This document shows, piece by piece, positions 49,401 through 55,400 of a stretch of 64,000 bases of DNA (positions are counted from its first letter, which is position 1; every line of letters starts with the position of its first letter). A program made the position numbers. The DNA lies in assembly GCF_053078305.1 (NCBI RefSeq), contig NZ_CP166879.1. One strand, 5' to 3'.

Positions 49401-52400
49401 TCTGGTATGTGCCGCCGGAATGTCGGTTTGTGGCGGAACGCTGACCGGTGTTTATTTCGGGGATTTGCGCGGTTATCCCTGGCATTCACTGGATGACGCA
49501 TTTCCGCCTGATATGGAGGCAGTCGTGCTGATTGTTCAGTATGGTGACCAACAGGAACTGCGCATCGGCCATATGGGGTATGAAGGCTTTTTTATTGATG
49601 AAGAAACCGGAGCCTGCCTTGAAGATGAGGACGGACAGGTGACGCACTGGTGCCATATTTCAGCTTTACCGGAATGACGGGAGGTGAATGCGTGAGAAGT
49701 TATATTGATAATGAAAAACTGAAGACAATCAGCGACTGTCTTAGCTTGCTGGCAAAAATAAAAGAAACCATTGAAGAGATTAAATTTCAGCTTGAATACG
49801 CACCCTGTGGTGATGATACATGGCGTAACTCTGCCAGAAAAGCACTGGCTGTCTTTCAGAAACAACGCCGGACTGTTGAATACCGCCTTGCTGTATTACG
49901 CCAGGAGGAAAAGGAAAGAAATATAAGATGTCACGAGCGCGTTAATAACTTCCTTGTTCGTGAATTAAAAGAACGTGTGCCGGAGTCGGTATTTTTTGAG
50001 TGTGAGGCTGTTGCCCGTAGCAAAGCACTGGAAACTGATTAAACAGGCAGGTGAATGATGAGTATTGAATTAAGATCGTCTTATGAATATCGTAAAATTC
50101 TCATCGCCGGAGGCATGAAACCGGAAGATGCAGAAAAAATTGTTTCTTTTATGGATAAAGAATGTGACAAACGGGATATGCCAGAAATTATTATGGATGA
50201 CATGATTCTGCATTCAGCCGTAGCGTTAAGCCCGTTATGGATTGTGCATTCTCTTGCTGAAATTGCCAAAGGCACCGATAAACAGGCAGCTGTTGCTGCC
50301 CTTCAGACGCTTAATGAAATGCGTATATCTCCACGCCCGACATTAATACATATGATTCTCTCCAGTATGGAGGATAAAGCAAATGAATAGTCTACCCGCT
50401 GGATGGGCGCGGCCACTAATGGCCAGGAAGCATCATTTTTTTAAAACAGGCGAAAATATCAGTATATGTGGACGGTGGTTATATCTGGCTCATAATCGCG
50501 AGCCGGATACATTTGAAAGCCCTGATGACTGTGCCGAATGCCGCAGAAGAGTGAATAAGGAGAAAGATAATGGACAATAGTTCTCTGTTGTTCTGGTGCT
50601 TATATATCACATCCTTTTTCGGCGCATTTGTTATTACCCGGTGGTTATGTCGAAAAATCATCTGCTTTTTTGATAAAAGACATCCGGTTGAACGGGCGGC
50701 TGATGCGCTCATTCAGCAGGCCATTGTGTTATATAGCGGTGAATTTTTCTGCCGGATAACAACCAGAGATGGCTGGCACATAATGATTATTCCGCCAACA
50801 CACCATGCCCGGTGGGATGAGGCAGAAAAGGCTTTCCATGTCCGTAAAAAGGTAAATACGGTATGAGAGGAAAACTGATATCCGCCATTCATGTGGCAAA
50901 GCGCGAGCTTGCCCTGGATGATGAGACCTACACATTCGTACTACTGGCAGCCACCGGCAAAACCAGTTGCCGGGATATGTCACCCGGTGAGTTATCCCGC
51001 GTGCTGGATGTTTTCAAAAAACGCGGTTTTAAAGTGCGTCAGAAACCGGTTAACCGGGCCTTAAAACCGGGTACGGTGACCGCCAGAATTCGCGCCATCT
51101 GGAAAGTGATGCACCGGCAGGGCTTTATCTCTGATGGTGCGGAAACCGCTCTTAACCGCTGGGTGAAATCGCAGACGGCCGCGCAGAACGGCGGCGAAGG
51201 TGTGGCAAACTGGCAGTGGCTGGAGCAACACCCCGCCCTGGCCTCAGATGTGCTGGAGCGTCTCAAGCGATGGCACCGCCGCAAAATGCTGGCCGCGATG
51301 GGAATGCCCGAACGCACGCTGATGGGGTATGACGCCGTTTGCAGGCAGTATGAAAAATCACTTCCCCGTTAACCCCAAATCCCGCCACAACGCGGGATTT
51401 TTATTTTAAACTTACCGGGAACGCGAGAACCGGAGGCTGATATGGCAGAAACTCAGATGAGCATGTTTGGTGGTGACAGTGAGCAACTGCACGCCCTTAT
51501 CGACCGCCTTGATGACATCCCTGATGATGTTCTCAAAAAGAACTGGCCGCGGACCCTGTCAGAACTGGTTGAAGTCACCGGCGCAGAACTTCAGCGTCAG
51601 GGGATTGAGCCGGTACTGGCCGGTAAACTGGCACGCAAGGTGGCTGCGGCTCAGGCAGCCTATATGGGCGGACGGGGTTATTACCTGCCGGTCGGGGAAT
51701 CTCTCTTTGCCGAGCTGCGAAACAATGAGATATTTTCGCGCTGGGACCGGGGCGAGAAGATTGAATCCCTTCGCCGCCATTACCGGATGTCAGAAACCCA
51801 GATTTATACCGTCATACGTGAACAGCGCCGTCTGCATCTGGCAAGAACGCAACCGCCACTTTTCTGATATTCCGCAAAGCCTGCCGCCTCTCCTTCACCG
51901 TTACGCTGACTCAGAGAACATCATGAGACAGCGTAACAATGCCAAAACTCCCCGCACCACTGCGTAAAAAGCTGATTGCCCTTGTTCTGGCCGGTGCCGG
52001 GACGTTCACGATTGCCACGCATTACACCGGTTACTGGGAAGGGAAAGAAAACTCCACGTATATCGATCCCACCGGTACACCCACCATCTGTTACGGCCAT
52101 ACCGGCCCGGATGTGAAACCGGGTATGACCCTGACAGATGAAGAATGCCTGGAACTACTGGAAAAGGACATGAAATGGGCCTTTGCGGCCATTGATCGGC
52201 GTGTTCAGGTGCCGCTTACCCGTGGTCAGACGGTGGCGCTGGCTTCGTGGATCTTCTGGGCCGGTGAAACGAACTTTCGCAACTCCACGCTTCTGCGCCT
52301 GATCAATGCCGGGCAGATGCCCGCGTCCTGTAAGCAGTATATCCGCTGGATTTATTCAAAGGGGGTGAAACTTCCCGGCCTTGAGGCCCGCCGTTCGGCG

Positions 52401-55400
52401 GATGAATGGTTATGTCGCTACGACTTGCCGAAAGTCTGAACCGCTTCTGGCGACCGCTCATGATAGCGCTGCTGTGTGCGGTACTGCTGTTACGGGGTGT
52501 CCTGTGGCTGCGGTGAATAACGCCTTACCGGCCCTGATTGCCGGGGCGTGCATGGCGGCGCTGGGGACTATCGCTGTACTGGTTGCCGCGATATGGGGAA
52601 TGCACCAGAAGACGCAGCGCCTTGAAGACAATAATCAGGTGCTTGTGCGTGAGCGGGATGAGGCGCGTCAGGTGCTGGCAAATCAGCAGCACACCCTGCA
52701 ACTCATTTCACAAATCAGTGAGGCGGCCACGAATGAAAAGCAACAGAACATTCAGCACAGCGAGGAGCAGCAGAGCGTTGTCCGCCGGTCGCTGGCAGCA
52801 GTGCCTGCGGCCTCTGTCCCTGTTCCTGATGATGTGGCTGACCGGGTGCGCCGGGCCGTCTGTGAAATACGTGCCTGTGAAGCCGGTGCCGATCCCCGCT
52901 GAATGGCTGGCTGACTGCCTGGTCCCTCCTGCGCCGGAGCCGTTCACGTTTGGGGCATCGGTCACTTACAACCTGCAACTGCTGGCGGTGATCAAGAACT
53001 GCAACGTGGATAAGGCCAGTATTCGTCGTCTGGAGGCGCGGCGACAACATGAATTTACTGATATGGCCGGAACGCCTGCTGTTCCGGCAGGAAAGACGAA
53101 GTAAGGAAAAAGGTATGGATGATTCAGATCGTGCTCAGGCTGTGATGGAGCGGGGATCAGAACGCGCCCTTTGTAACCGGCTGACACGTAAGCGCCGGGC
53201 AGTGGATGCTCCGGGCAGACGTGTCTGCGCGGACTGTGGCGGAGAGATCCCCGCCGCACGTCTTGTTGCTGTGCCGGATGCCATCCGTTGTGTGAACTGC
53301 CAGAACATCATGGAGGCCCGTCATGTGGGTCAGCATCGTTAAAGATTATGTTGTGCCGATCCTTTCGGCGACGGCAACCGCTGGCGGGATATTCATGGCG
53401 CTGATGCGCAAAACGTTTGTCCCCCGCGAGGCCTTTGAAAAACTCTCCGACCGCGTTGAGAAGGTGGAAACCCGTCTGTCGTCACTGCCGACAGAAGCCG
53501 AGGTCAACCGTCTGAATGTGGAAATCGTGACCCTGCGGGGTGAACTGAAAACCACGAACGCCACGCTCCGCTCTGTCTCCTATCAGAACGAACTGCTGCT
53601 GGAGCAGGCTGTAAGGAAAAAAACGCAATGAGTGATTTCATTACTGAAGATCAGCGTCTGGTCATTCTGCGGTCGCTGGCAGATTACAACGGTGAACTGG
53701 GTGAATCCGTGCTCCAGGACTGTCTGGATGATTACGGCCACCGCGTGTCCCGCGACACCGTTCACACCCACATTGCCTGGCTTGCCGAGCAGGGACTGGT
53801 GCGCAAACGTGTTCTGATTAACGGTTATTTCATCGCAGAGCTGACCGGCCGGGGGCAGGATGTGGCGGAAGGCCGCGCCAGTGTTCCGGGTGTGAAGAAA
53901 CCACGCGCAAGGGGGTAACGATGGACAAGCCGACGCGTGGTCGTGTACGCAAGGTGGATTTGCTCCCCGACAGTATCCGTAAGCCGCTGCTGGAAATGCT
54001 GCGTGAAAAACGTCTGACGCAGGTCCAGATCCGCGAGGAAATCAACCGTCTGATCCGTGAGGCGGGCCTGCCGGAAGAGCAGCAGCTTTCACCGGCGGCC
54101 ATCAGCCGGGAAGCCTCCCGTAATGAGCTGATTGCCCGTAACCTGCGTGATTTACGCGAGCAGACAAAAGCCATGATGGCCGAACTGGGGGACAAGCCGA
54201 CCGGTGAAACCACTGCACTGATTCTGGAGATGTCCCGCGCCCTGATGTACCGCCGTCTGCGTGCCGCCACCGAATCCCTGAACAGCGACAGCGACGTGGA
54301 TATGCGTCTTATTAAGGACATCCTCCTGTCAGCACAGCGTGCGGAAAGTGCCGCCGAGCGCAGCATTAAGCGTGAAAAAGAAATCCGGGCTGCATTTGCT
54401 GAAGAGATGGCAAACGCCGTCACCGACGAGCTGCGCGGCGTGGACGGGATGAGTGAACAGCTTGAGTCCCGTATTAAGGGGATTCTGTTGGGTAAAGCCT
54501 GATGAATAACGCCGAAGAACGCTCACCCTTACTGACGAATACCGTCTCCACCCGCAAAATTGATCTGGCCGGTGAAAAAGCCCTGCTGGGCGTGGATGTG
54601 CCGGACAGCCTTGATTTGCCCGGTGATATGCCGGTGTTTCTGGATTATCAGGCCCGCTGGTTTGAGGATGAAAGCGAGGTCTGCATCGCGGAAAAATCCC
54701 GCCGCACCGGGCTTACCTGGGCGGAAGCCGGGCGTAACGTCATTACCGCTGCAAAACCGAAGCGGCGTGGTGGCCGCAATGTGTTTTATGTGGGGTCAAA
54801 GCAGGAGATGGCGCTGGAATATATTTCTGCCTGTGCATTGTTCTCCCGTGCCTTTAACCAGCTGGCCGATGCTGATGTGTATGAGCAGACCTTCTGGGAT
54901 CGGGATAAAAAAGAAGAAATTCTGACCTACATGATCCGCTTTCCGAACAGTGGATTCAAAATTCAGGCGCTGTCTTCCCGTCCGTCAAACCTGCGCGGCC
55001 TTCAGGGGGATGTGGTGATTGATGAAGCCGCGTTCCACGAGTCGCTGGATGAACTTCTCAAGGCGGCAATGGCGCTTACCATGTGGGGCGCGCGCGTGCG
55101 TATTATCTCCACGCATAACGGCGTCGATAATCTGTTTAATCAGTACATTCAGGAAGCCCGCGAGGGGCGCAAGGATTACAGCGTCCACCGCATTACCCTG
55201 GATGATGCCATTACGGACGGGTTGTACCGTCGTATCTGTTATGTCACCGGCCGCGAATGGTCACCGGAAAGCGAGCAGAAGTGGCGTGATGATCTCTACA
55301 AAAACGCCCCGACCCGTGAGGATGCCGACGAGGAATACGGCTGTATCCCGAAAAAATCCGGCGGTGCCTATATTCCTCACGCACTTATTGAAATGGCGAT

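What the first reader, a model, noticed from the sequence alone, without database searches (positions are those of the whole stretch)
51939..53104. Lysis cassette: SAR endolysin followed by overlapping spanin genes, no obvious holin
The endolysin has an N-terminal signal-anchor-release segment and a T4-lysozyme-like catalytic motif. Downstream, a TM plus coiled-coil ORF and a +1-frame lipoprotein ORF (lipobox LTGC, proline-rich) look like i-spanin and o-spanin. A pinholin or holin is not obvious; the small membrane proteins at 50570..50866 and 53323..53631 are candidates.
Basis: partly seen in the sequence, partly recalled or inferred. Interest (0 to 1): 0.4.

Follow-up and report, generated by a model that had tools for sequence, protein, structure and literature searches.

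The report
Mu-type holin-less lysis cassette, extra gene
This is the cell-bursting gene set of a Mu-like prophage in E. coli: it has no holin because, as in phage Mu, a "releasin" protein probably frees the membrane-tethered lysozyme, and it also contains a tiny conserved membrane-protein gene that genome annotation has missed.

Summary
Window 51939-53104 encodes three lysis proteins:
- A GH24 lysozyme with an N-terminal signal-anchor-release (SAR)-type segment and an E34-x8-D43-x5-T49 triad.
- An i-spanin (GTG 52513-52902).
- A +1-frame o-spanin lipoprotein (52733-53104, lipobox LTGC).

The region lies in a Mu-like (Sp18-type) prophage. It is gene-for-gene collinear with the phage Mu late lysis operon: C, gp22, gp23, gp23.1, gp24, gp25, gp26, gp27.

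The missing holin is therefore expected. Mu is experimentally holin-less and uses gp25, a DUF2730 "releasin", to free its SAR endolysin (Chamblee 2022). The other candidate, 50570-50866, is an early-region gene upstream of a strong terminator.

One new element emerged. An unannotated 34-36 aa single-helix membrane protein gene ("ORF36", 52406/52412-52516) sits between the endolysin and the i-spanin.
- Its stop overlaps the i-spanin start.
- It is under purifying selection (pN/pS 0.07-0.33, against above 1 in the alternative frame).
- It is present in four diverged clades and absent from Mu.

Its function is unknown. RefSeq records misplace the i-spanin and o-spanin starts.

Verdict: a new variant of a known kind, of moderate interest.

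The parts
51442..51867 (+). Mor/C-family late transcription activator (context; the only Mor-family gene upstream of the cassette)
   Evidence: Pfam Mor PF08765, E 3e-32. 40% identical to Mu C. Same position as Mu C, immediately upstream of lys.
51868..51938 (+). Intergenic region, the presumed activator-dependent late (Plys-like) promoter
   Evidence: Same position as the annotated Mu late promoter. No sigma-70 consensus promoter was found here. A CCGCA element is invariant across clades and in Mu Plys. Its function is inferred, not tested.
51939..52439 (+). SAR-type GH24 endolysin (Mu gp22 homologue)
   Evidence: PF00959, E 6e-37. 39% identical to Mu gp22, E 9e-33. E34-x8-D43-x5-T49 triad. 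Weakly hydrophobic, G/A/S/T-rich segment at residues 12-30, preceded by RKK. Best PDB match is phage 21 R21 (3HDE), including its SAR domain.
52406..52516 (+). ORF36, an unannotated 36-aa (34 aa from ATG 52412) single-helix membrane protein gene. It overlaps the endolysin 3' end by 34 nt, and its TGA overlaps the i-spanin GTG (GTGA).
   Evidence: Same length and position in every relative of the clade fetched whose contig covers this interval; L032 carries a 1-nt insertion. pN/pS is 0.07-0.33 in this frame against 1.7-4 in the i-spanin frame, and the third frame has stops. Fisher p = 0.004. Homologues are present in clades whose endolysins are 67% and 49% identical. KD 2.31 for residues 17-35. 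AF2 gives a single helix 3-35. No Pfam or PHROG family.
52513..52902 (+). i-spanin (Mu gp23 homologue), start GTG 52513
   Evidence: PHROG 214 Rz-like spanin, E 1e-32, with the alignment collinear from residue 17. 28% identical to Mu gp23, E 2e-7. N-terminal TMD. AF2 long helix, linker and C-terminal helix. The sequence upstream of 52513 is not under selection in this frame.
52733..53104 (+). o-spanin lipoprotein (Mu gp23.1 homologue), +1 frame, 'overlapped' architecture
   Evidence: PF23793 LysC, 62.7 bits. 42% identical to Mu gp23.1, E 2e-15. Lipobox LTGC identical to Mu. Cys39 lies at 52847-52849. Mature part 85 aa, 13% Pro, +2 residue Ala. The ATG 'MK(S/N)N' start is conserved in Citrobacter. 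An alternative TTG start at 52778 cannot be excluded.
53115..53342 (+). TraR/DksA C4 zinc-finger protein in the position of Mu gp24
   Evidence: PF01258, E 4e-12. PHROG 54. Syntenic with Mu gp24. Its role in lysis is unknown.
53323..53631 (+). DUF2730 membrane protein, homologue of the Mu gp25 releasin
   Evidence: PF10805, 71.4 bits against a cut-off of 24.9. 35% identical to Mu gp25, E 3e-17. N-terminal TMD at residues 10-28, followed by an R29-K30 junction. Fifth gene after the endolysin, as in the family description (PMC9239132).

Best explanation
This is the late lysis operon of a transposable Mu-like (Sp18-type) prophage, and it works like the phage Mu system, without a holin.

Proposed sequence of events (inferred from the Mu experiments):
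1. The Mor/C-family activator switches on a late promoter in the 71-nt gap upstream of the endolysin.
2. The endolysin is exported by Sec but stays tethered to the inner membrane, enzymatically inactive. The tether is its weakly hydrophobic N-terminal SAR segment, which the adjacent basic cluster R9-K10-K11 holds in the bilayer.
3. The DUF2730 protein (N-out/C-in, with a TMD and a cytoplasmic helical domain) promotes exit of the SAR segment from the membrane.
4. The freed enzyme refolds and degrades the peptidoglycan.
5. That liberates the spanin complex, which then disrupts the outer membrane. The complex consists of the inner-membrane i-spanin and the outer-membrane lipoprotein o-spanin.

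Shown here: identities, motifs, topology-type features, synteny and selection.

Inferred from Mu experiments: releasin dependence, absence of holin function and order of events.

An extra component is encoded between the endolysin and the i-spanin and is translationally coupled to the i-spanin. It is a 34-36 aa tail-anchored helix (ORF36). Its role is unknown. My working guess is a membrane-level modulator of SAR release or lysis timing.
For: Synteny and homology:
- Gene-for-gene collinearity with the annotated Mu genome: C, SAR endolysin, i-spanin, o-spanin, gp24, releasin, gp26, terminase small and large subunits.
- Every cassette protein except the gp24-position one has its Mu counterpart as best or only hit: 39%, 28%, 42%, 35% and 63% identity. 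The gp24-position protein matches Mu gp24 only weakly (E 0.03) and is placed by synteny and its zinc-finger family hit.

Sequence features:
- SAR features and the catalytic triad.
- N-terminus alignable to the solved phage 21 SAR endolysin.
- DUF2730 above the Pfam threshold, with a TMD and an RK junction.
- Spanin features.

No holin found:
- No Mu gp19 or gp20 homologue in the window.
- No annotated holin in a 99.5%-identical full prophage.

Experimental basis in Mu:
- Mu gp22, gp23, gp23.1 and gp25 were tested experimentally, and Mu lacks a holin (PMC9239132).

Evidence that the element is active:
- The cassette is intact in 230 of 5426 complete E. coli genomes, with up to 4 copies per genome.
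Against: - Nothing was tested experimentally in this phage.
- Identity to gp25 is only 35%.
- DUF2730 proteins also accompany endolysins that lack SAR domains, so the family's role may not always be SAR release.
- The SAR segment here has 2 Gly, against Mu's 6 Gly in a stretch of 7 positions. The Mu authors thought that Gly run might contribute to releasin dependence.
- The basic cluster is RKK at 9-11 rather than KK at 6-7.
- The conserved extra membrane protein ORF36 is absent from Mu. The mechanism may therefore differ in this clade.
Confidence: 0.8

Rival explanations
1. The cassette is not holin-less. ORF36 (52406-52516) is a minimal holin, pinholin or membrane-depolarising peptide that triggers SAR endolysin release, as S21 does for R21.
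For: ORF36 is a conserved small single-TMD protein located inside the late lysis cassette. It is co-translated with the endolysin and the i-spanin and is under purifying selection. Membrane depolarisation is known to release SAR endolysins (established knowledge; PMC9239132).
Against: - No similarity to any holin family in Pfam or PHROGs.
- At 34-36 aa with one TMD it is much smaller than the holins I know of (my recollection, not checked here).
- It is absent from Mu and from sister clades that have the same endolysin, spanin and DUF2730 set, so it is not essential to this cassette type.
- The DUF2730 releasin homologue is retained alongside it.
Confidence: 0.08
2. SAR release here is spontaneous, or depends only on expression level. 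The DUF2730 protein has another role, for example in morphogenesis or DNA packaging, since it sits next to gp26, gp27 and the terminase genes.
For: Most characterised SAR endolysins release spontaneously at some rate. DUF2730 proteins occur with non-SAR endolysins. The SAR segment here resembles phage 21 R21 more than the Gly-rich Mu segment.
Against: The RKK cluster lies directly before the SAR helix, like the K6/K7 pair that confers gp25 dependence in Mu. The endolysin-to-DUF2730 linkage is conserved in all Mu-like clades examined. Without a holin or a releasin, nothing would time lysis.
Confidence: 0.08
3. The endolysin N-terminus is an ordinary cleavable Sec signal peptide, giving a secreted endolysin rather than a SAR anchor.
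For: The sequence can be read as an n-region MPKLPAPLRKK, an h-region LIALVLAGAGTF and a possible T-I-A cleavage motif at residues 24-26 (read from the sequence; no SignalP was available).
Against: The whole segment aligns to the SAR domain of the solved phage 21 endolysin and to Mu gp22, both shown experimentally to be SAR endolysins. The catalytic Glu follows within about 5 residues, as in SAR GH24 enzymes. An unregulated secreted lysozyme would kill the host prematurely.
Confidence: 0.03
4. The cassette is a decaying remnant in a defective prophage and no longer functions.
For: Many O157 prophages are defective (PMC2669165). One relative (L032) carries a 1-nt insertion that fuses the endolysin and ORF36 frames.
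Against: - All genes are intact.
- Purifying selection is visible even on the smallest ORF.
- There are 266 copies in 230 genomes, up to 4 per genome and at different chromosomal sites, which fits active transposition.
- Sp18 was judged intact.
Confidence: 0.02

Closest known systems
Phage Mu late lysis operon: gp22 SAR endolysin, gp23/gp23.1 spanins, gp24, gp25 releasin (Chamblee et al. 2022, PMC9239132; AF083977)
   Same: - Identical gene order, downstream of the C activator and upstream of gp26, gp27 and the terminase.
- Homologous proteins throughout the lysis genes (28-42% identity; gp24 position by synteny).
- SAR-type N-terminus with a dibasic cluster.
- Overlapped +1-frame o-spanin with the same LTGC lipobox and the same 85-aa mature length.
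- DUF2730 protein with a TMD and a dibasic junction.
- No holin.
   Different: - An additional conserved 34-36 aa membrane protein gene lies between the endolysin and the i-spanin. In Mu, gp23 overlaps gp22 directly.
- The SAR segment has 2 Gly rather than Mu's Gly-rich run.
- The basic cluster is RKK at 9-11, not KK at 6-7.
- The gp24 position is held by a longer TraR/DksA zinc-finger protein.
- There are no gp18, gp19 or gp20 genes, and only one Mor/C-family gene.
Phage 21 pinholin/SAR-endolysin cassette (S21-R21-Rz-Rz1; structures 3HDE and 3HDF)
   Same: The endolysin's closest solved relative (E 1e-24), including the N-terminal SAR segment and the GH24 triad. It is followed by two-component spanins.
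   Different: Phage 21 has a two-TMD pinholin upstream and an embedded Rz1. Here there is no pinholin homologue, the o-spanin is overlapped rather than embedded, and a DUF2730 protein is present.
P2 lysis cassette (Y-K-lysA-lysB-lysC)
   Same: The o-spanin belongs to the Pfam 'LysC' family. The i-spanin and o-spanin genes overlap in the same way. A membrane-protein gene (lysA) sits between the endolysin and the spanins.
   Different: P2 has a holin (Y) and a soluble endolysin. As I recall (not checked here), LysA is a multi-TMD protein of about 140 aa. It is not a 36-aa single helix, and I assume no sequence similarity (not compared).
Mu gp20 (39 aa, one TMD, N-in/C-out; middle gene of unknown function)
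   Same: Similar size and the same predicted tail-anchored topology as ORF36. Both are encoded near the lysis genes of a Mu-type phage.
   Different: There is no detectable sequence similarity (hhalign probability 0.2%). gp20 lies in the middle operon between mor and C, not in the late cassette. In Mu it has no holin activity and is dispensable for lysis.

Membership tests
SAR endolysin (GH24 muramidase type; Mu gp22 / phage 21 R21) | GH24 lysozyme domain with the E-x8-D/C-x5-T catalytic triad | tested here: met
   PF00959, E 6e-37. E34, D43 and T49.
SAR endolysin (GH24 muramidase type; Mu gp22 / phage 21 R21) | N-terminal weakly hydrophobic, charge-free stretch of about 20 residues rich in Gly/Ala/Ser/Thr, preceded by basic residues | tested here: met
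   Residues 12-30 have a KD19 mean of 1.39 and 10 of 19 are G/A/S/T. K3, R9, K10 and K11 lie upstream. The segment aligns with the R21 SAR domain.
SAR endolysin (GH24 muramidase type; Mu gp22 / phage 21 R21) | Sec-dependent membrane tethering without cleavage, followed by release from the membrane (for example by a pinholin or by depolarisation) | not testable with these tools
   Requires fractionation, western blots and lysis assays.
Two-component spanin, overlapped architecture (Mu gp23/gp23.1; P2 LysB/LysC) | i-spanin: N-terminal TMD and a mostly alpha-helical periplasmic domain | tested here: met
   KD 2.37 for residues 9-27. AF2 pLDDT 87 with helices 4-96 and 106-125. PHROG 214, E 1e-32.
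Two-component spanin, overlapped architecture (Mu gp23/gp23.1; P2 LysB/LysC) | o-spanin: lipobox with Cys, +2 residue not Asp, short Pro-rich mature peptide | tested here: met
   LTGC with Cys39, +2 Ala, 85-aa mature part with 11 Pro. PF23793, 62.7 bits against a cut-off of 27.
Two-component spanin, overlapped architecture (Mu gp23/gp23.1; P2 LysB/LysC) | o-spanin gene starts inside the i-spanin gene in the +1 frame and extends beyond it | tested here: met
   52733-53104 against 52513-52902, a 170-nt overlap with a +1 frame offset.
Two-component spanin, overlapped architecture (Mu gp23/gp23.1; P2 LysB/LysC) | Needed for outer-membrane disruption (spherical-cell phenotype when mutated) | not testable with these tools
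   Shown for Mu gp23.1 only.
Releasin / DUF2730 type I (Mu gp25) | Full-length match to PF10805, including the N-terminal TMD | tested here: met
   71.4 bits against a cut-off of 24.9. Residues 6-97 match profile positions 3-101 of 102.
Releasin / DUF2730 type I (Mu gp25) | Significant sequence similarity to Mu gp25 itself (type I) | tested here: met
   35% identity over 91 aa, E 3e-17.
Releasin / DUF2730 type I (Mu gp25) | [quoted passage not shown] | tested here: met
   TMD at residues 10-28, then R29-K30. Fifth gene after the endolysin. GemA, Mor, Mu transposase and gp27 are all present. The topology is inferred from the positive-inside rule only.
Releasin / DUF2730 type I (Mu gp25) | Required for, or accelerates, release of the SAR endolysin | not testable with these tools
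   Demonstrated only for Mu gp25.
Holin / pinholin | Homology to a described holin family for any gene of the cassette | tested here: not met
   No holin hit in Pfam or PHROGs for any cassette ORF, including ORF36. No Mu gp19 or gp20 homologue. No holin annotated in the whole prophage.
Holin / pinholin | Small membrane protein in the late lysis transcript with energy-poison-triggered lethal hole formation | not testable with these tools
   ORF36 and the DUF2730 protein are small membrane proteins in the cassette. The triggering assay cannot be done in silico. Mu gp25 failed that assay.

The most novel reading that the evidence does not exclude
ORF36 is a new functional class of lysis-cassette protein. 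It is a 34-36 aa tail-anchored helix with an invariant Arg-Gly inside the membrane segment. It could act as a minimal holin or depolarising trigger. Alternatively it could act as an 'anti-releasin' that holds the SAR helix in the bilayer. Either way, this clade of Mu-like phages would have a dedicated lysis-timing component that Mu itself lacks.
Probability: 0.12. Interest if true: 0.65.

Novelty: new variant of a known kind. Interest (0 to 1): 0.38.

Why it matters
The main finding is ordinary in kind. It extends the recently described holin-less SAR-endolysin/releasin strategy of phage Mu to a prophage lineage present in about 4% of complete E. coli genomes, many of them STEC and O157 strains. 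In some of those strains the prophage sits inside Stx phages.

The useful additions are practical:
- Reference annotation misplaces the o-spanin start after its lipidated Cys.
- Reference annotation gives the i-spanin three different, unsupported starts.
- A conserved, selected small membrane-protein gene inside the cassette is essentially absent from protein databases.

If ORF36 influences SAR-endolysin release, it would give a second genetic handle on how membrane exit of SAR domains is controlled. That mechanism is still unknown. The clades with and without the gene form a natural comparison set.

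Tried and rejected
I replaced it with a profile search of 1.84 billion representatives. That search found one true relative (P0061, 34 aa) and two repetitive false hits.
- The genome-contig scan with the endolysin returned only one locus, in Citrobacter braakii.
- L044 (endolysin 38% identical) is a non-Mu phage with its own upstream membrane protein and an embedded Rz1. It says nothing about ORF36.
- ORF36 against Mu gp20 by hhalign gave no similarity.
- ORF36 against Pfam and PHROGs gave nothing credible.
- I tested whether ORF36 and gp19/gp20-like genes have complementary distributions among Mu-like clades. No such pattern appeared. The clades lacking ORF36 instead carry an unrelated signal-peptide protein between gemA and C.
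- I considered an ORF36-i-spanin frameshift fusion and rejected it. There is no slippery heptamer, and the overlap length varies from 4 to 14 nt between clades.
- I considered that the PGAP N-terminal extensions of the i-spanin (starts at 52474 or 52504) are real and rejected this. pN/pS is above 1 in that frame upstream of 52513.
- The sigma-70 promoter scan found nothing upstream of the endolysin. This is expected for an activator-dependent late promoter and is not informative.
- Other DUF2730 phages (Shewanella MuM16-2, Pasteurella AFS-2018a, Klebsiella Kp4866-3) have different endolysin types and different intervening membrane proteins. They do not help assign a function to ORF36.
- A 'tRNA-OTHER' annotated by PGAP in the related prophage was not found by ARAGORN in the window.

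Full report
**1. What is at the coordinates**

Family scans identify them as follows:
- a GH24 phage lysozyme (PF00959, E 6e-37);
- an Rz-like i-spanin (PHROG 214, E 1e-32);
- an Rz1/LysC-type o-spanin (PF23793, 62.7 bits against a gathering score of 27).

**2. Context**

The neighbours are all Mu hallmarks:
- GemA (50863-51372);
- a Mor/C-family activator (51442-51867);
- a TraR/DksA zinc-finger protein (53115-53342);
- DUF2730 (53323-53631);
- a gp26-like protein, Gp27 (small terminase) and the large terminase.

The host flank (yegH-wza) ends near window position 40898. The cassette therefore lies about 11 kb from the prophage left end, as lys does in Mu.

The same DNA, at 80-99.5% identity, occurs in 230 of 5426 complete E. 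coli genomes, many of them STEC and O157 strains, with up to four copies per genome. It also appears as an 'inserted Mu-like phage' inside two Stx phage records. This matches the Sp18-type Mu-like prophage described for O157 Sakai and judged intact there (PMC2669165). I did not check identity to Sp18 itself.

The re-annotated Mu genome (AF083977) has exactly the same order: C, late promoter, SAR endolysin gp22, i-spanin gp23, o-spanin gp23.1, gp24, releasin gp25, gp26, gp27, gp28. Pairwise BLAST pairs the window proteins with their Mu counterparts:

| Protein | Identity to Mu counterpart |
|---|---|
| Endolysin | 39% |
| i-spanin | 28% |
| o-spanin | 42% |
| DUF2730 | 35% |
| gp26 | 63% |
| C | 40% |

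The gp24-position protein matches Mu gp24 only weakly (E 0.03); it is placed by synteny and its zinc-finger family hit.

**3. Endolysin**

The catalytic motif E34-x8-D43-x5-T49 is present.

The N-terminus is MPKLPAPLRKK-LIALVLAGAGTFTIATHYT. The hydrophobic stretch has a Kyte-Doolittle 19-residue mean of only 1.39, and 10 of its 19 residues are Gly, Ala, Ser or Thr. That is the SAR signature. By contrast, the i-spanin TMD scores 2.37.

The closest solved structures are the phage 21 SAR endolysin R21 (3HDE, 3HDF) and RrrD. The alignment begins at residue 5 and covers the R21 SAR segment.

In Mu, the two lysines just before the SAR helix make release dependent on gp25 (PMC9239132). Here R9-K10-K11 occupy that position. 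The segment differs from Mu in having 2 Gly rather than a Gly-rich run.

A cleavable signal peptide cannot be formally excluded without SignalP or experiments. Homology to two experimentally proven SAR enzymes argues against it.

**4. Spanins**

The i-spanin most likely starts at GTG 52513, for three reasons:
- The PHROG profile aligns collinearly from there.
- Mu gp23 has a similarly short cytoplasmic N-terminus.
- The sequence upstream in that frame evolves with pN/pS of 1.7-4, so it is not coding.

AF2 gives mean pLDDT 87. It predicts one long helix (4-96) spanning the TMD and the periplasmic region, a Pro-rich linker, and a C-terminal helix 106-125. This is the expected i-spanin shape.

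The o-spanin starts at ATG 52733 with a GAGG Shine-Dalgarno sequence 9 nt upstream. An 'MK(S/N)N' start is conserved in Citrobacter. It has the lipobox LTGC with Cys39, the same four residues as Mu gp23.1. The mature part is 85 aa, identical in length to Mu, with 13% Pro and Ala at +2, which predicts outer-membrane sorting. A TTG at 52778 is a possible alternative start.

The gene overlaps the i-spanin by 170 nt in the +1 frame and runs past its end. This is the 'overlapped' architecture of Mu and P2.

RefSeq records are wrong in two ways:
- LysC is started at the GTG equivalent to window 52862, downstream of the lipidated Cys (52847-52849). That start cannot yield a lipoprotein.
- The i-spanin is given three different starts, equivalent to 52474, 52504 and 52552.

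**5. The missing holin**

Chamblee et al. (2022, PMC9239132) showed the following for Mu:
- DNP does not trigger Mu lysis.
- gp25 is needed to release the SAR endolysin. It is a DUF2730 protein with an N-out/C-in TMD and a cytoplasmic domain.

- full-length DUF2730 match at 71.4 bits;
- TMD at residues 10-28;
- the family's dibasic junction (R29-K30).

The other candidate, 50570-50866, belongs to a PHROG of unknown function. It sits upstream of gemA and of a strong intrinsic terminator at 51377-51400, so it is outside the late lysis transcript.

Three further results bear on a holin:
- No Mu gp18, gp19 or gp20 homologue exists in the window.
- A hydropathy scan of the genes annotated in the 99.5%-identical prophage flagged, near the cassette, only the i-spanin and DUF2730; the SAR endolysin scores below the cut-off, as SAR segments do.
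- No holin is annotated anywhere in that prophage.

**6. An extra gene (ORF36)**

With the i-spanin starting at 52513, 73 nt remain between it and the endolysin stop. This interval, together with the last 34 nt of the endolysin gene, carries an ORF at 52406-52516: MVMSLRLAESLNRFWRPLMIALLCAVLLLRGVLWLR.

Evidence that it is a real gene:
- Its TGA overlaps the i-spanin GTG (GTGA).
- It is present, at the same length and position, in every relative of the clade that I fetched whose contig covers this interval. These comprise six E. coli variants, 30-odd IMG/VR contigs and Citrobacter braakii. The single exception is L032, where a 1-nt insertion fuses it to the endolysin frame.
- In the non-overlapped 69 nt, Nei-Gojobori pN/pS is 0.07-0.33 in the ORF36 frame and 1.7-4 in the i-spanin frame, while the third frame contains stops. 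For window against Citrobacter, Fisher p = 0.004.
- Homologues of 37 aa exist in two more distant Mu-like clades whose endolysins are 67% and 49% identical (L064, L065). In each case the stop overlaps the i-spanin start by 11-14 nt.
- R16, L23, V26, R30, G31, L33 and L35 are invariant across all four clades.

The gene is absent from sister clades (L067/L121, L069, L123, L126) and from Mu, where the i-spanin overlaps the endolysin directly.

A GGAG 7 nt upstream of the third codon in L065 suggests the true start is the ATG at 52412, which would give 34 aa.

AF2 models a single helix 3-35. Residues 17-35 have KD 2.31. The positive-inside rule predicts an N-in, tail-anchored protein with Arg30-Gly31 near the periplasmic face.

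The exact sequence is absent from a 15-billion-protein collection. A profile search of 1.84 billion representatives found a single called relative, with no name. There is no Pfam or PHROG family and no similarity to Mu gp20.

So this is a real, selected, essentially unannotated gene embedded in the cassette. Its function is not determined.

**7. Mechanism proposed**

Late transcription from the activator-dependent promoter upstream of 51939 yields one mRNA. The proposed events are:
1. The endolysin is Sec-exported and held inactive in the inner membrane by its SAR helix and the RKK cluster.
2. The DUF2730 protein promotes its exit.
3. The peptidoglycan is degraded.
4. The spanin complex then disrupts the outer membrane.

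The identities, motifs, synteny and selection are shown here. Releasin dependence, the lack of holin function and the order of events are inferred from Mu.

ORF36 is co-translated between the endolysin and the i-spanin. The most economical guess is a membrane-level modulator of SAR release or timing. A holin-like trigger role is not excluded; I put its probability at about 0.1.

**8. Comparison and novelty**

The cassette passes every sequence-testable defining feature of the three families: SAR endolysin, overlapped two-component spanin and type I DUF2730 releasin. The only holin feature that could be tested, homology, is not met.

It is therefore a member of the Mu-type holin-less system. 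It is distinguished by an additional conserved small membrane protein, so I class it as a new variant of a known kind.

Interest is moderate. ORF36 and the annotation errors are new and testable, but of specialist scope.

Noticed in passing
window 52406-52516 (+): An unannotated, conserved 34-36 aa single-TMD gene (ORF36) lies between the endolysin and the i-spanin. It is under purifying selection, and its stop overlaps the i-spanin start. It is present in four diverged clades and absent from Mu.
   Followed up: yes
window 52474-52902 and 52862-53104; L002-L009: RefSeq/PGAP annotation problems. The 'LysC' CDS starts at a GTG downstream of the lipobox Cys (52847-52849), which removes the signal peptide and the lipidation site. 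The i-spanin is given three different starts in near-identical prophages (equivalent to 52474, 52504 and 52552), none of them at the selection-supported GTG 52513.
   Followed up: yes
L032 3440-3600 (IMG/VR contig 2526164665_000023): A 1-nt insertion in an A-run (CCGAAAAGT against CCGAAAGT) fuses the endolysin reading frame to the ORF36 frame. The predicted product is a lysozyme with a C-terminal TMD. This is probably a homopolymer sequencing error or a single mutant.
   Followed up: partly
window 51372-51867: Only one Mor/C-family gene lies between gemA and the endolysin, whereas Mu has mor, genes 18-20 and C. A strong intrinsic terminator (51377-51400 plus a T-run) follows gemA directly. The same single-activator layout is seen in all the related Mu-like clades fetched. 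How a middle/late cascade runs on one activator was not examined.
   Followed up: partly
window 51868-51938; alignment A2: A CCGCA element is invariant in the activator-endolysin intergenic region of all the clades and in the annotated Mu Plys promoter. It may be part of the activator binding site.
   Followed up: no
window ~40898: The prophage left end: sequence to the left is E. coli chromosome (yegH-wza region) found in nearly all E. coli genomes. The closest full prophage copy (NZ_CP075665) sits at a different site, next to cyuA and tdcG. That fits insertion by transposition.
   Followed up: partly
window 49650-50042, compared with L008 10408-10593: The early region is mosaic. The 99.5%-identical lysis region in NZ_CP075665 is preceded by a different early gene, a 61-aa protein with two hydrophobic segments, where the window has an unrelated 130-aa ORF.
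   Followed up: no
L008 38581-39044 (beyond the window's right end): The related prophage carries DUF1378 and DUF826 small proteins in its right-end accessory region, near com. As I recall (not checked here), DUF1378 genes are otherwise typical of lambdoid and Stx-phage lysis cassettes.
   Followed up: no
L048 1570-2188 (Klebsiella phage Kp4866-3, unannotated record): Directly downstream of a soluble (non-SAR) endolysin are a recognisable Mu gp18-like ORF and a multi-TMD ORF reminiscent of Mu gp19. A DUF2730 gene is also present in this locus. In that phage the gp19-like protein might serve as the holin.
   Followed up: no
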